DNA of 26,467 nt from a virus (Duplodnaviria; Heunggongvirae; Uroviricota; Caudoviricetes). The first letter of the stretch is position 1. Each line of letters opens with the position of its first letter. The translations under genes were made by a program, and so were the position numbers. The notes under the pieces are model-generated. The model ran no database searches. It was not told where the DNA came from and worked only from the letters and a program-made list of their open reading frames with translations. The stretch spans positions 1 through 26,467 of IMG/VR virus record IMGVR_UViG_2654588181_000005; one strand, 5' to 3'. Positions 1,553 to 15,427 of this stretch are shown in pieces.

Positions 1553-1741
1553 TCACGAGGACTGAAGTTTCTCGCAATTAAAATTTATCAGTTTTACTTT
1601 CTGCTCTCTGGAAACGCCTGCTTCTTTTTTACCTGAGAGCATTTTTTCGCATTCTGATTTCGTTAGTTTAGATTTTGAATATCTTGTCCAGTTAGTAGGA
1701 GTGCCACCTTCCTTTTCAATTGTAGCGGTAATTTTATACAT
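1553..1741 (-). CDS. ydaC: Small Rac-type early protein (YdaC-like)
   Basis: 62 aa from MYKITATIEKEGG; GGAGG 6 nt before the ATG at 1741; start overlaps the lar stop by 8 nt. Confidence 0.6.
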   Translation of the reverse strand: MYKITATIEKEGGTPTNWTRYSKSKLTKSECEKMLSGKKEAGVSREQKVKLINFNCEKLQSS

Positions 1742-7330: not shown

Positions 7331-7807
7331 TTAAGTTCCAGTTTTTGTGATGTTCTGGCTTTTCCGTTCAGATTCTAGAGCTTTCAGATACTTACCCACT
7401 TTCATTTCCATCGCTGCTATGTAGGCGCGAACATCGTGGTCAACCCAATCTGGTTCTGTAGCATTTCCAGATAACAGGAAAGCTACAATCGCTCTTATTT
7501 CATCAGAGGCTGCTTGATAAAGGTTGTTTATATCTAAAAGTTCACTTTTTGTATCTGAATTGGTGGGGGTTGGTATGGGGTATTCGTTAAGCCCCCAATG
7601 CTCTGGACCAACAACATCAGAAAAGAAACGCCATAATTCTGGAAGTTTATCTTTACTTATGGAGCCTTTCTTAATCCAGTCATAAATTGATGGTGGTTGG
7701 ATTTTGAAGTGGCGTGCGACCTCCGCCTTTGATTTGACGGATCCCGATGCGATTTTTTTGTTAATGGCCTGCTCTATCGCTCGGCCTAAGTCTTTACCAC
7801 TAAGCAT
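7331..7807 (-). CDS. racR: RacR prophage repressor
   Basis: 158 aa starting MLSGKDLGRAIEQAINKKIASGSVKSKAEVARHFKIQPPSIYDWIKKG (HTH); divergent from ydaS. Confidence 0.9.
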   Translation of the reverse strand: MLSGKDLGRAIEQAINKKIASGSVKSKAEVARHFKIQPPSIYDWIKKGSISKDKLPELWRFFSDVVGPEHWGLNEYPIPTPTNSDTKSELLDINNLYQAASDEIRAIVAFLLSGNATEPDWVDHDVRAYIAAMEMKVGKYLKALESERKSQNITKTGT

Positions 7808-11686: not shown

Positions 11687-11701
11687 TTGCCGGAGGCGCT
11701 T

Positions 11702-12124
11702 ATGGCAAAAGTATTTACACAAGAAGAGCGGGAAAAAATTAAGGGGCAGGTTGTTGAACTCGTGCGCCAGAATGGGCGCGAGACGTTACGACAACTTGAA
11801 GCTAAGACAGGTGCGACAAGATATTTAATGAGCGTTCTCGCCAGAGAGCTGGTTGCCAGTGGCGATGTATATAACTCCGGCTACGGGCTATTTCCCTCTG
11901 AACAGGCTCGTAAGGACTGGCAAAACGCCCGCAAAAAACTATCGAGGGCAAAGGTGAAGAAACCTGCTGTAGTTGATCCGGACCTTATCTGGTCATTACC
12001 AGACGGAGAAATACGCCGCTATGACAGGCGTCTGAATATAATCTGTCGCGAGTGCCGGAAGAGCGAAGTCATGCAGCGTGTACTGGCGTTCTATCAGGGT
12101 AATTTTCAGGATGTGCTGTTGTGA
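11702..12124 (+). CDS. Hypothetical phage protein (140 aa)
   Basis: GGAGG before the ATG at 11702; product MAKVFTQEEREKIKGQVVELVRQNGRETLRQLEAKTGATRYLMSVLAREL. Confidence 0.5.
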   Translation: MAKVFTQEEREKIKGQVVELVRQNGRETLRQLEAKTGATRYLMSVLARELVASGDVYNSGYGLFPSEQARKDWQNARKKLSRAKVKKPAVVDPDLIWSLPDGEIRRYDRRLNIICRECRKSEVMQRVLAFYQGNFQDVLL

Positions 12125-12285: not shown

Positions 12286-12789
12286 ATGACTGAATTAACC
12301 AAAAAGCAATTAATCGAAGAAGCTAAATTAAAAATAGCGATTGAGAAATGCCACCCCAATTCAGGGATGGCATGGGTAGAGGGCGAATTATTCAAAATTG
12401 CTCTGGCATCTCTGGAAGCAGAGCCAGTTGGTGATTTTTATGAATACAAACCGGATGACTGGTATCAGCGTTCGGCTGGAGATAAAGCGCCAAAAAGGAC
12501 GCCATCCTATGCCGTTTTTCCAGCGCCCGTAGTGCCGGAAGAAATGGATTTGCTTACATGCCATCTCGATGGTGTAACTGAAACATATGCTGAGGGATGG
12601 AACGCTTGCCGCGCTGCCCTGCTTCAGGGCAAAGGGGAGCCCGGGAAACAAGTTCGCGAATTGACAATGCTGGTTAAACAATTGGTTAGTCAACTTAAGA
12701 AAGCGAAACCGGGCTGCAAATTGCCGGATAAAGTGATGGACTACCTGGAGCGAAGCGGACTTATAAGCGTGGAGGATGTTTTACGATGA
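12286..12789 (+). CDS. Hypothetical phage protein (167 aa)
   Basis: Product MTELTKKQLIEEAKLKIAIEKCHPNSGMAWVEGELFKIALASLEAEPVGDFYEYKPDDWYQ...EGWNACRAALLQ; family not confidently recognised. Confidence 0.55.
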   Translation: MTELTKKQLIEEAKLKIAIEKCHPNSGMAWVEGELFKIALASLEAEPVGDFYEYKPDDWYQRSAGDKAPKRTPSYAVFPAPVVPEEMDLLTCHLDGVTETYAEGWNACRAALLQGKGEPGKQVRELTMLVKQLVSQLKKAKPGCKLPDKVMDYLERSGLISVEDVLR

Positions 12790-12869
12790 CCTGGTCTGAA
12801 GCATTCACAACGGTAGGAATTGCGATGGCGGTGGCGCTGGTGGTGTATTCGATTTGCCGCTGGGGTTGA
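12786..12869 (+). CDS. Putative small hydrophobic peptide (27 aa)
   Basis: ATGA start/stop overlap with the upstream gene; product MTWSEAFTTVGIAMAVALVVYSICRWG resembles a single transmembrane helix; followed by a terminator. Confidence 0.3.
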   Translation: MTWSEAFTTVGIAMAVALVVYSICRWG

Positions 12870-12882
12870 TAATACTAAATAA

Positions 12883-12901
12883 CCAGCCCTTATGGGGCTG
12901 G
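12883..12901. terminator. Bidirectional intrinsic terminator between convergent genes
   Basis: CCAGCCC-ttatg-GGGCTGG hairpin, flanked by a T-rich run on the minus-strand side and a weaker one on the plus-strand side. Confidence 0.6.
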
Positions 12902-12909
12902 CTAATCAT

Positions 12910-13683
12910 TTAGAACTGTTCATTGCCATCGAGGTTAGGTAGCATAATTTTTTCAATCAAGGCGAGAGCCTTTTTGTCCCGGTCAGCGAAGTATTTCGGG
13001 GCATATTGCGGCAACCAAATATTGTTAAAATGTTCTTTGAAATCTGCTAAATATTCATTTGGGTACAGCCTTGCAGGGTATACGCGACCATCGGGATATT
13101 CATGGTCATAGGTAGGGAATGTTTTGGGTTCTACGTTTCTATTATCTCTTAACCATTGTGAAAATACTCTTCCTTGTGAAATGTCAGGAACCATTTTTTC
13201 TGGGAGTGTGTACCCTGCTTGTTCAAGAGGTGCAACCAAGTTGAATGTCAGTTCATTAAGAATAGAAAAGTGCGTGTGAGGAATTCTACTACGATTAACC
13301 ATGTACCGTTTTAAATGTACAGGCATTTCTGCTGTAGTTCTTTCCCCTGACATCCATTCACGAACCCATCTTGAAACCTGGACTGCAAATTTGGGCGATA
13401 GCCACTGCGCTAGATTAATAGCGATGTCAGGATGCACCCATGTCCCTTGGTTTTCAGGTCTTCCACCTTTAAATGATTGAATTAACTCCGATATGGGAAT
13501 TCCCATATCGCGTGATAATTCGTCAAAAAACTCTTGAGTAGTTTTGAGTCTAGTGTAATCAGAGAGCAGTTTGCCCGCAGTTCTACACATTGATGTGGCG
13601 TTTATGTAACCATCTTTGGCACGTAAATGTATTATTTCGCCGTCAATTTCACGAGAAATCAAAGATAATTGAAAGGATGTCAT
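12910..13683 (-). CDS. KilA-N domain protein
   Basis: 257 aa; N-terminus IHLRAKDGYINATSMCRTAGKLLSDYTRLKTTQEFFDEL...HPDIAINLAQWLSPKFAVQVSRWV is a classic KilA-N/APSES-type domain; GAGGA ribosome-binding site; C-terminal ~130 aa of unknown function. Confidence 0.75.
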   Translation of the reverse strand: MTSFQLSLISREIDGEIIHLRAKDGYINATSMCRTAGKLLSDYTRLKTTQEFFDELSRDMGIPISELIQSFKGGRPENQGTWVHPDIAINLAQWLSPKFAVQVSRWVREWMSGERTTAEMPVHLKRYMVNRSRIPHTHFSILNELTFNLVAPLEQAGYTLPEKMVPDISQGRVFSQWLRDNRNVEPKTFPTYDHEYPDGRVYPARLYPNEYLADFKEHFNNIWLPQYAPKYFADRDKKALALIEKIMLPNLDGNEQF

Positions 13684-14205
13684 TGAAAATTCCTCAAGTT
13701 GGAGAGTTCTGGAACATTAAGGCGAGGTGGCCGTAATGCACCATCTGTAATCTTTTGATACTGACGTAATCGGGCCTGATGTGCAACGCCTTGCAAGTAT
13801 GTAACTCATTGAAAACGATCATTTTTATCTATTGACATCAAATGGCAAACTGTCATTGTGCGGCTATGGCAAGTGGCAAATGCTTATAAATCATATGGAT
13901 ATAAATAGTACAGAAAGAGTTGTTTTCTCTAGGATATGAGTATACGCCCAATGCTGATTGGTTGAATTTTGTTCTTGTTTTAAAGGGTAAGAGTTTAAAG
14001 TGTTGGCAGTGATGTATTGGATAGTTAGAATTGCTGTGGGTGCTTGAGGCTATCTGCCTCGGGCATGATCACCAAAGGTAGATAGAGAAAAGCCCCAGTT
14101 AACATTACGCGTCCTGCAAGACGTTTAACATTAATCTGAGGCCATATCTATGCGACACATAGAGATTAGCCTCTTACGGACCGAAAGGTCAAGGAGAAGC
14201 AGGCT

Positions 14206-14361
14206 ATGAAGCAGCAAAAGGCGATGTTAATCGCCCTGATCGTCATCTGTTTAACCGTCATAGTGACGGCACTGGTAACGAGGAAAGACCTCTGTGAGGT
14301 ACGAATCCGAACCGGGCAGACGGAGGTCGCTGTCTTCACAGCTTACGAACCTGAGGAGTAA
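14206..14361 (+). CDS. hokD: Hok/Gef-family type I toxin (HokD/RelF-like)
   Basis: 51-aa product MKQQKAMLIALIVICLTVIVTALVTRKDLCEVRIRTGQTEVAVFTAYEPEE; a short upstream ORF (14150-14209) ends overlapping the hok ATG, mok-like. Confidence 0.85.
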   Translation: MKQQKAMLIALIVICLTVIVTALVTRKDLCEVRIRTGQTEVAVFTAYEPEE

Positions 14362-14827: not shown

Positions 14828-15427
14828 ATGGCGCATATACAACTGGTCAAACAAACTTCTTCTGGTTTACTTCTCCCGGCGACGCCGGAGAGTTGCGATT
14901 TTCTGCATCAAATCAAAATAGGTGAGTGGATACACGCAGACTTTAAGCGTGTGCGTAACTACGCATTCCACAAGCGTTTTTTCAAACTCCTGCAACTGGG
15001 TTTCGATTACTGGACTCCGGTCGGTGGGGCGATCACGCCTCGCGAACGAAAACTGGTGTCCGGTTTCGTTGATTACCTGTGTGAATCAGTAGGCCGGGAA
15101 CATACGCCAGCTCTGAGCGAAGCCGCAGAGCAATATCTGAATACAGTTGCGACACACAGAACCCGTGATACGGCATTGCTAAAGTTGTTTGAGGCTTTCC
15201 GCGAGTGGGTAACCATTCAGGCCGGATTTTACACCGAGCATATTTATCCGGACGGTAGTCGTGGGCGTCGGGCGAAATCCATCGCGTTTGCGAATATGGA
15301 CGAAACCGAGTTTCAGCAGGTTTATAAATCTGTACTGAATGTGCTGTGGAACTGGATTCTGTTCCGTAAATTTTCCTCTCCGGAACAAGTCGAAAATGTG
15401 GCCGCGCAGCTACTGGAGTTTGCGTAA
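14828..15427 (+). CDS. Conserved lambdoid late-regulatory-region protein (DUF1367-like, as recalled)
   Basis: 199 aa starting MAHIQLVKQTSSGLLLPATPESCDFLHQIKIGEWIHADFKRVRNYAFHKRFF. Confidence 0.55.
   Translation: MAHIQLVKQTSSGLLLPATPESCDFLHQIKIGEWIHADFKRVRNYAFHKRFFKLLQLGFDYWTPVGGAITPRERKLVSGFVDYLCESVGREHTPALSEAAEQYLNTVATHRTRDTALLKLFEAFREWVTIQAGFYTEHIYPDGSRGRRAKSIAFANMDETEFQQVYKSVLNVLWNWILFRKFSSPEQVENVAAQLLEFA

What the first reader, a model, noticed from the sequence alone, without database searches (positions are those of the whole stretch)
12910..13683. KilA-N domain gene oriented against the early operon
The minus-strand 257-aa protein pairs a KilA-N DNA-binding-type N-terminal domain with a C-terminal region of unknown function and ends at a hairpin shared with the convergent plus-strand genes. 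It could be an anti-repressor-like regulator or a superinfection-exclusion factor.
Basis: partly seen in the sequence, partly recalled or inferred. Interest (0 to 1): 0.5.

Follow-up and report, generated by a model that had tools for sequence, protein, structure and literature searches.

The report
BstA-like phage-defence gene in Rac prophage
The minus-strand gene is real and encodes a two-domain protein (KilA-N DNA-binding domain plus the C-terminal domain of the BstA abortive-infection proteins), so it is most likely a prophage-borne anti-phage defence gene of a known family, sitting in an unusual place in a Rac-like E. coli prophage.

Summary
A 257-aa ORF at 12910-13683 (-) has a strong KilA-N N-domain (Pfam E=4e-27). 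It ends 6 nt from a GC-rich hairpin (12880-12904) shared with the convergent plus-strand genes.

The "C-terminal region of unknown function" is the BstA-like C-terminal domain (PF26567). It matches PADLOC BstA at E=3e-21 and PHROG 6287 "BstA abortive infection system" over the full length at E=3e-89. A profile-profile comparison with the BstA-BTP1 C-domain gives 98.4% probability.

The window is a Rac-like lambdoid prophage at ttcA. The gene sits in a ~1.16-kb low-GC cassette between the replication/Ren-like module and sok/hokD-ninB. This is not the canonical bstA slot downstream of the repressor. Alleles with 81-86% aa identity (and a ~77% nt E. coli allele) do occupy that cI-N slot.

Its N-domain is a canonical KilA-N. 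It is not detectably homologous to the N-domain of the tested BstA proteins, and no member of this subfamily has been tested. No aba-like self-immunity element could be recognised.

Verdict: an untested member of the BstA family in a non-canonical locus. The antirepressor reading is unsupported; the "exclusion" reading is roughly right in spirit. Interest is modest.

The parts
12910..13683 (-). CDS, 257 aa, 30 kDa: KilA-N + BstA-like C-terminal domain protein (bstA-like gene)
   Evidence: ORF listed. PHROG 6287 'BstA abortive infection system, replication inhibitor' matches aa 1-254 at E=2.7e-89. The identical protein is seen on >=1000 public contigs and named only 'KilA-N domain-containing protein'.
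13348..13644 (-). N-terminal KilA-N DNA-binding domain (aa 14-112)
12931..13329 (-). BstA-like C-terminal domain (aa ~119-251), presumed effector domain
   Evidence: PADLOC BstA matches aa 119-238 at E=3.2e-21. BLASTP to BstA-BTP1 aligns aa 125-251 at 32% identity, E=3e-16. hhalign of the C-domains gives prob 98.4%, E=1e-14. Precomputed Pfam PF26567 is shared with the BstA-BTP1 family. Residues invariant across both subfamilies: R126 N130 P135 F139 S140 E144 D167 S169 G171 W177 H194 Y207 P208 F215 Y231. The AF2 C-domain model has pLDDT 92.7 but no solved or viral structural relative.
12880..12904 (.). GC-rich hairpin between the two convergent transcription units; intrinsic terminator for the minus-strand gene, possibly bidirectional
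   Evidence: Terminator scan. RNA folds at -18.7 and -16.0 kcal/mol, z -4.3 and -3.4.
13691..13695 (-). Shine-Dalgarno GAGGA, 7 nt upstream of the ATG
   Evidence: Read directly from the sequence.
13821..13848 (-). Only sigma-70-like promoter match upstream of the gene (TTGCCA-16-AAAAAT, 9/12); weak and unverified
   Evidence: The number of promoter-like sites in the region is not above the shuffles, so this is a candidate only.
13843..13879 (+). Cluster of three TGGCAA hexamers overlapping the promoter-like site; unexplained, possibly an operator or protein-binding array
   Evidence: 29 copies on both strands in 26.5 kb, three of them within 37 bp here.
13650..13712 (-). Stretch positionally equivalent to the BTP1 aba element (-29..+34 around the start codon); no sequence evidence that it is one
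   Evidence: Position taken by analogy with Owen et al.. No terminal direct repeat comparable to CCCGCC...CCCGCC was found.
12866..14025 (.). ~1.16-kb low-GC cassette (terminator + gene + 340-bp upstream region) specific to this prophage lineage
   Evidence: The left flank 12700-12865 is shared with ArgO145/Stx phages. The right flank from ~14002-14026 is the widespread sok/hokD locus. The cassette with both flanks is present in 117 of 5426 complete E. coli genomes. GC is 39.7% against 45.6% for the window and ~50% for adjacent genes.

Best explanation
The gene encodes a BstA-family abortive-infection protein carried as a moron by a Rac-like lambdoid prophage.

**Proposed working, inferred from characterised homologues:**
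- The protein is made in the lysogen from its own promoter.
- When a foreign phage starts to replicate, the KilA-N domain takes the protein to DNA. The conserved C-terminal BstA domain then blocks phage DNA replication.
- The infected cell dies without releasing progeny, and the lysogen population is protected.

**Self-immunity.** A prophage carrying such a gene must spare itself. By analogy a cognate, allele-specific DNA element (aba) in or next to the 5' end of the gene should neutralise the protein on the replicating prophage. A further possibility is particular to this locus. Read-through of the rightward early/replication operon into the antisense strand of the gene could turn it down during lytic growth.

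**Shown here:**
- the gene and its two domains;
- homology of the C-domain to BstA;
- the prophage context and the cassette boundaries;
- the canonical cI-N position of close alleles.

**Inferred:** expression in lysogeny, the defence phenotype, the replication block, the existence and position of an aba element, and transcriptional interference.
For: - **Family matches.** Full-length match to PHROG 6287 (BstA) at E=2.7e-89. PADLOC BstA model on the C-domain at E=3.2e-21.
- **Shared Pfam domain.** PF26567, which UniRef names 'BstA-like C-terminal domain', is carried by both this family and the BstA-BTP1 family.
- **Direct comparison with BstA-BTP1.** BLASTP gives 32% identity over aa 125-251, E=3e-16. 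Whole-protein hhalign gives 97.4%, E=1.5e-11. The C-domain alone gives 98.4%, E=1e-14.
- **Architecture.** The overall layout is the same as BstA: an N-terminal KilA-N(-like) DNA-binding domain, a flexible linker and a C-domain (paper).
- **Context.** The gene is prophage-borne.
- **Close alleles in the bstA slot.** Three alleles lie immediately downstream of and co-oriented with cI, between cI and N. They are the 86% aa allele in phage PhiR5_2, the 81% aa allele in Proteus phage vB_BPM-V3 and the ~77% nt allele in E. coli O111:NM. That is the signature position of bstA. Five of 39 same-strand upstream neighbours in a species-wide survey are S24+HTH repressors.
- **Moron features.** Low-GC cassette with its own terminator.
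Against: - **No experimental test.** No member of this canonical-KilA-N subfamily has been tested. The three tested BstA proteins (BTP1, Kp, Ec) are ~300-aa BTP1-type proteins.
- **N-domains unrelated at profile level.** The N-domain is not detectably homologous to the BstA-BTP1 N-domain (hhalign prob 0.7%). BTP1-type proteins do not hit Pfam KilA-N. Sensing or targeting could therefore differ.
- **Modest C-domain identity.** It is only ~25-32%.
- **PADLOC coverage.** The PADLOC model is matched over only 43% of its length. A DefenseFinder census of E. coli reported bstA only in prophages at the tRNA-Arg hotspot (PMC10121019), so standard tools seem not to call this gene.
- **Different wiring.** The gene is not downstream of the repressor racR (7331-7807). 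Its promoter is only a weak consensus match.
- **No aba signal.** No aba-like repeat was found.
- **Non-prophage relatives.** Many distant family members sit in settings with no obvious prophage, next to housekeeping genes or transposases.
- **No fold clue.** The C-domain fold has no informative structural relative.
Confidence: 0.6

Rival explanations
1. It is an antirepressor or other transcriptional regulator of the prophage's own lysis-lysogeny switch. The KilA-N domain binds DNA or the RacR repressor and promotes or modulates induction.
For: KilA-N/Bro-N domains occur in phage antirepressors and regulators. PHROG 129 'transcriptional regulator' matches the N-domain at E=9e-25. The gene has its own regulatory region containing a cluster of repeated hexamers.
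Against: The PHROG 129 match covers only aa 13-118. No ANT or KilA-C domain is found. The C-domain is the BstA domain. Close alleles sit in the lysogenically expressed cI operon, which is the wrong place for an inducer of lytic growth.
Confidence: 0.1
2. It acts on the prophage's or the host's own DNA transactions, for example as a replication or recombination accessory or a Kil-like host toxin. Any defence would be incidental.
For: It lies next to the replication/Ren-like module and the nin recombination genes. BstA homologues co-localise with replicating DNA. Many family members are outside prophages.
Against: It is antisense to the replication operon and sits on a separate low-GC cassette that is absent from most related prophages. 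It is therefore dispensable for the phage cycle. Its homology is to a demonstrated defence protein.
Confidence: 0.12
3. It is a BstA-type effector domain re-wired to a different sensor. It would be a defence protein with target range, trigger and self-immunity unlike BstA: no aba element, and control purely by convergent transcription or by a DNA site such as the TGGCAA cluster.
For: The N-domains of the two subfamilies are not detectably related, while the C-domains are. The locus differs from the canonical one. No aba-like repeat straddles the start codon. There is a hexamer cluster in the upstream region.
Against: aba elements are allele-specific and cannot be recognised by sequence, so their absence cannot be shown. 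Alleles with 81-86% aa identity do sit in the canonical slot, which argues for the same biology.
Confidence: 0.15

Closest known systems
BstA-aba abortive-infection system of Salmonella prophage BTP1, with BstA-Kp and BstA-Ec (Owen et al. 2021, Cell Host Microbe, PMC8585504)
   Same: - Homologous C-terminal domain (PF26567), with a shared set of invariant residues.
- N-terminal KilA-N-type DNA-binding domain followed by a linker.
- Single-gene, prophage-borne moron with its own Rho-independent terminator.
- Close alleles of this gene occupy the same cI-N slot.
   Different: - 257 aa rather than ~300 aa.
- The N-domain is a canonical Pfam KilA-N with no detectable profile similarity to the BTP1-type N-domain.
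- Here the gene lies between the replication/Ren-like module and sok/hokD, antisense to the early-right operon. It is therefore not driven by the repressor promoter.
- There is no CCCGCC-type repeat around the start codon.
- The subfamily is untested. [quoted passage not shown]
KilA-N / Bro-N antirepressors and regulators (P1 KilA, Ant-type proteins; PHROG 129)
   Same: N-terminal KilA-N fold.
   Different: The C-terminal domain is unrelated: no ANT or KilA-C domain is present.
Lambda RexAB, SieB and Ren (lysogen-expressed exclusion functions of lambdoid phages)
   Same: A prophage-encoded function expected to protect the lysogen against other phages. The close alleles occupy the same cI-N hotspot as rexAB and sieB. 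A Ren-like gene lies two genes upstream here.
   Different: There is no sequence or fold relation. This is a soluble single protein, not a membrane channel or sensor pair.

Membership tests
BstA abortive-infection family | C-terminal BstA domain (PF26567) homologous to that of BstA-BTP1 | tested here: met
BstA abortive-infection family | N-terminal KilA-N(-like) putative DNA-binding domain, with a two-domain layout | tested here: met
BstA abortive-infection family | N-domain homologous to the N-domain of the experimentally characterised BstA proteins | tested here: not met
   hhalign of the N-domain profiles gives prob 0.7%, E=0.087. None of 40 BTP1-type proteins hits Pfam KilA-N.
BstA abortive-infection family | Encoded on a prophage | tested here: met
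   Rac-like prophage at ttcA with integrase, recET, racR, replication, nin, lysis and terminase genes.
BstA abortive-infection family | Located immediately downstream of, and co-oriented with, the prophage repressor (frequent in the family, not universal) | tested here: not met
   In the window racR is at 7331-7807 and the gene is 5 kb away on a separate cassette. The feature is met by the 77-86% alleles.
BstA abortive-infection family | [quoted passage not shown] | tested here: inconclusive
   No terminal direct repeat straddles the ATG. The 5' end is not exceptionally diverged between alleles: 0.67 against 0.76 overall. aba elements are allele-specific and not recognisable by sequence.
BstA abortive-infection family | Abortive-infection phenotype with a block of phage DNA replication | not testable with these tools
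   Requires plaque, survival and replication assays.
BstA abortive-infection family | Recognised over most of its length by curated defence-system HMMs | tested here: inconclusive
   The PADLOC BstA model is matched over positions 148-272 of 292 only. PHROG 6287 is matched over its full length. The published DefenseFinder census did not report bstA at Rac/ttcA.
KilA-N antirepressors (Ant / KilA type) | C-terminal ANT (PF03374) or KilA-C domain | tested here: not met
   No such Pfam match at E<=1.
Superinfection-exclusion membrane proteins (SieB, Sie, Imm type) | Membrane-anchored protein blocking DNA entry | tested here: not met
   No hydrophobic segment: maximum 19-residue Kyte-Doolittle mean 0.64. 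The AF2 model is a confident globular two-domain protein.

The most novel reading that the evidence does not exclude
The canonical-KilA-N + BstA_C proteins may form a functionally distinct defence subfamily. The BstA effector domain would be coupled to a different DNA sensor.

In this Rac-type cassette, self-immunity would not come from a start-codon-spanning aba. It would come from the locus architecture instead:
- convergent read-through from the early-right/replication operon silences the gene during lytic growth; and/or
- the upstream TGGCAA cluster acts as the decoy or operator DNA.
Probability: 0.15. Interest if true: 0.55.

Novelty: new member of a known kind. Interest (0 to 1): 0.3.

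Why it matters
- **Undercounted defence genes.** If the protein defends as BstA does, about 2% of complete E. coli genomes (117 of 5426) carry a defence gene that is annotated only as "KilA-N domain-containing protein". A further ~0.5% carry the cI-linked allele. At least one published DefenseFinder census seems to have missed the Rac-borne copy. The BstA family would then be larger and more modular than counted.
- **A natural experiment.** This locus has a BstA-type gene uncoupled from the repressor promoter and placed antisense to the lytic operon. That could help separate the contributions of expression control and of the aba DNA element to self-immunity.
- **Limits.** The mechanism of BstA itself is unknown. 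The invariant residue set shared by the two subfamilies (R126, N130, E144, D167, S169, H194 and others) gives mutagenesis targets. None of this is a surprise for the field.

Tried and rejected
- **aba-like signature.** I searched -70..+70 around the start codon in the window and in eight close homologues. Only chance-level 5-7-mers turned up. The BTP1 aba itself was recovered in L003 as a control.
- **Hyper-divergent 5' end.** I tested whether the 5' end differs unusually between the window allele and the 76% alleles, as allele-specific aba would predict. It is 0.67 identical against 0.76 overall, and other segments are equally low, so the test is uninformative.
- **Upstream alignment.** Aligning the upstream regions of the window, PhiR5_2 and the Proteus phage showed no conservation.
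- **Fold of the C-domain.**
  - Foldseek against BFVD: nothing below E=0.19.
  - Profile against PDB sequences: nothing.
  - The afdb50 library was unavailable.
- **Other architectures of the C-domain.** A C-domain profile found only PF26567 alone or KilA-N+PF26567, with no further N-domain partners.
- **Literature.** PF26567 appears in no paper. No mechanistic follow-up of BstA and no tested KilA-N+BstA_C protein was found.
- **Inducibility.** I hoped the three "phage" records with an identical gene would show that the prophage is inducible. They are PHASTER predictions from genome assemblies, not isolated phages. Inducibility is therefore not shown.
- **NCBIfam.** No match.
- **Promoter.** The promoter scan is not enriched over shuffles, so the promoter remains unassigned.

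Full report
**1. Observation**

The ORF is real. It runs 12910..13683 on the minus strand, starts with ATG and encodes 257 aa. A GAGGA Shine-Dalgarno lies 7 nt upstream of the ATG.

- Pfam KilA-N (PF04383) matches aa 14-112 at E=4.3e-27, 94.5 bits against a gathering score of 23.8.
- An AlphaFold2 model built on 41 homologues has mean pLDDT 91. It shows two well-defined domains joined by a low-confidence linker at aa 113-120.
- The hairpin at 12880-12904 lies 6 nt past the stop codon of this gene. It also lies 11 nt past the stop of a 27-aa plus-strand ORF (12786-12869), which overlaps the end of the 167-aa phrog_660 gene.
- As RNA the hairpin folds at -18.7 kcal/mol on the minus strand (z=-4.3, U-rich tail) and -16.0 on the plus strand (z=-3.4).

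All neighbouring genes are on the plus strand.

**2. What the window is**

A 99.8%-identical stretch in E. coli A17 is annotated by RefSeq. It reads, in order:
- ttcA | intR, xisR, ralR, recT, recE, kilR, ydaF, racR, ydaS, ydaT;
- replication proteins, DUF1627, DUF977, a hypothetical protein;
- the KilA-N protein (minus strand);
- hokD, DUF1367 (NinB), DUF1364, a Q-like gene, lysis genes and terminase.

This is a Rac-type lambdoid prophage at ttcA. Other searches agree:
- Rfam finds RalA (1557-1735) and sok (14038-14208).
- PHROGs call the DUF977 gene "Ren-like exclusion protein" and 14828-15427 NinB.

The gene therefore sits at the ren/nin junction, antisense to the early-right operon.

**3. 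What the C-terminal half is**

It is not an orphan region.
- PHROG 6287, "BstA abortive infection system, replication inhibitor", matches aa 1-254 at E=2.7e-89.
- The PADLOC BstA model matches aa 119-238 at E=3.2e-21.
- In the 5.8-billion-protein collection all close homologues carry precomputed PF04383+PF26567.
- Homologues of the type protein BstA-BTP1 carry PF26567 alone. UniRef names PF26567 carriers "BstA-like C-terminal domain-containing protein". The local Pfam copy lacks PF26567.
- BLASTP against BstA-BTP1 (NC_042346) aligns aa 125-251 with 164-302 at 32% identity, E=3e-16.
- Profile-profile comparison of the two families gives 97.4% probability, E=1.5e-11.

Split by domain, the C-domains are clearly related (98.4%, E=1e-14). 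The N-domains are not detectably related (0.7%, E=0.087). None of 40 BTP1-type proteins hits Pfam KilA-N.

A joint C-domain alignment shows residues that are invariant across both subfamilies:
- R126, N130, P135, F139, S140, E144;
- D167, S169, G171, W177, H194;
- Y207, P208, F215, Y231.

**4. What is known about the family**

This section draws on Owen et al. 2021 (PMC8585504).
- BstA proteins are prophage-encoded and constitutively expressed in lysogens.
- They co-localise with replicating phage DNA, prevent phage DNA replication and act by abortive infection.
- The carrying prophage escapes through aba, a 63-bp DNA element. It spans 29 bp upstream and the first 34 bp of bstA, is flanked by a CCCGCC direct repeat, and is specific for its cognate BstA.
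- bstA typically lies just downstream of the prophage repressor, between cI and N.
- The authors noted a small group of homologues that matched only the C-terminal region.
- Their Table S1 shows that the tested BstA-Ec is 897 nt, so it is BTP1-type. The C-terminal-only hits include a Hafnia alvei entry. Hafnia carries an 81% homologue of the present protein (L008).

The present subfamily was therefore glimpsed but never tested. No later mechanistic work or test of a KilA-N+BstA_C protein was found.

**5. Genomic wiring**

The closest non-identical alleles are in the canonical bstA slot. In each case the gene lies directly after, and co-oriented with, an S24/HTH cI-type repressor and before N:
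- phage PhiR5_2, 86% aa;
- Proteus phage vB_BPM-V3, 81% aa;
- an E. coli O111:NM prophage, ~77% nt.

In a survey of 80 species genomes, 5 of 39 same-strand upstream neighbours are S24+HTH repressors. Many other loci show no obvious prophage context. The family reaches well beyond Proteobacteria.

In E. coli, 147 of 5426 complete genomes carry the gene. Of these, 117 have this allele, always with the same flanks.

The cassette boundaries were defined by flank homology:
- 12700-12865 is shared with ArgO145/Stx2a phages.
- sok/hokD homology resumes at ~14002-14026.

That leaves a ~1.16-kb cassette of 39.7% GC, against ~50% in the adjacent genes. The same slot varies between phages:
- ArgO145 holds a convergent toxin-antitoxin pair there.
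- Other Rac-like or Stx-like prophages hold only small plus-strand genes.

The gene is thus a moron that has moved from the cI-N hotspot to the ren/nin hotspot. It needs its own promoter. Only a weak sigma-70 match exists (13848..13821, 9/12), and promoter-like sites are not enriched in the region. Three TGGCAA hexamers cluster within 37 bp over that site. This is unexplained.

**6. Self-immunity element**

- The BTP1 aba was recovered at its expected place as a control.
- Around the start codon of the window gene and of eight close homologues, only chance-level 5-7-mers straddle the ATG.
- Upstream regions are not conserved between alleles.
- The first 36 nt are 0.67 identical between alleles, against 0.76 overall. 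That is not exceptional.

aba elements are allele-specific and defined only functionally, so this point is inconclusive. The three GenBank "phage" records carrying an identical gene are PHASTER predictions, not induced phages. Inducibility of this prophage is therefore not shown.

**7. Interpretation**

*Best explanation (0.6).* This is a BstA-family abortive-infection protein. It would be expressed in the lysogen and use its KilA-N domain to reach DNA. Its conserved C-domain would block replication of superinfecting phages. A cognate DNA element would spare the prophage, possibly together with convergent read-through from the early operon. Everything about phenotype and mechanism is inferred from homologues that share only the C-domain at about 30% identity.

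*Rivals.*
- Antirepressor or regulator (0.1). Only the KilA-N domain supports this. There is no ANT or KilA-C domain, and close alleles sit in the lysogenic cI operon.
- A role in the phage's or host's own DNA transactions (0.12).
- A re-wired defence protein with a different sensor and different self-immunity (0.15).

The protein is soluble, and its relatives act by abortive infection.

**8. Novelty and score**

The family, the domain architecture (in Pfam and PHROGs) and the biology are known. What is new:
- This is an untested subfamily with a canonical KilA-N domain in place of the BTP1-type N-domain.
- It is a relocated, repressor-independent, antisense cassette.
- A published DefenseFinder census reported bstA in E. 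coli only at the tRNA-Arg hotspot, so it appears to have missed this one.

I file it as a new member of a known kind, with variant features. Interest is 0.3.

Noticed in passing
window 13843-13879 (+): Three TGGCAA hexamers lie within 37 bp (13843, 13867, 13874). They overlap the only promoter-like site upstream of the gene. The whole 26.5-kb window has 29 copies on both strands. This could be an operator, a protein-binding array or chance.
   Followed up: partly
window 12786-12869 (+): A 27-aa strongly hydrophobic ORF (MTWSEAFTTVGIAMAVALVVYSICRWG; Kyte-Doolittle 19-mer 2.1) overlaps the stop of the 167-aa phrog_660 gene in an ATGA arrangement. It ends 11 nt before the shared terminator. The segment is conserved in ArgO145/Stx2a phages. 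It has no PHROG match.
   Followed up: partly
window 14038-14361 (+): sok antisense-RNA/hok leader (Rfam RF01794, 101 bits) and a hokD-type toxin ORF (14206-14361). This is a type I toxin-antitoxin locus immediately next to the cassette. Its homology is present in 3938 of 5426 E. coli genomes.
   Followed up: partly
window 1557-1735 (+): RalA antitoxin sRNA (Rfam RF02694, 218 bits), opposite the ralR toxin gene of the Rac-type early-left region.
   Followed up: no
window 11687-12124 (+): The DUF977 gene matches PHROG 142 'Ren-like exclusion protein' at E=5.5e-48. It is a second possible exclusion or defence function, two genes upstream of the cassette.
   Followed up: no
L087 (phage ArgO145) 3295-3806: At the position equivalent to the cassette, just after the shared left flank, ArgO145 carries a convergent toxin-antitoxin pair. 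This suggests the ren/nin junction is a slot for antisense accessory cassettes.
   Followed up: partly
proteins P0262, P0264, P0266, P0277 and others: Stand-alone PF26567 (BstA-like C-domain) proteins of 123-200 aa with no N-terminal domain exist in metagenomes. Some may be fragments, but several lie on contigs longer than 10 kb.
   Followed up: no
L006-L085: Homologues with 50-60% identity occur in Verrucomicrobiota, Planctomycetota, Myxococcota, Nitrospirota, Armatimonadota and CPR bacteria (Gracilibacteria, Peribacteraceae). Many are next to housekeeping genes or transposases rather than prophage genes. Conservation is unusually high for a phage moron.
   Followed up: partly
window 13694-13822 (-): A 42-aa ORF ends 10 nt upstream of the gene's ATG, and a similar ORF is annotated in one PHASTER-derived record. 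It has no PHROG match and is probably not a gene. A 10-nt direct repeat TTTTCAATGA occurs at its 5' part (13806-13815) and at the start codon of the main gene (13680-13689).
   Followed up: partly
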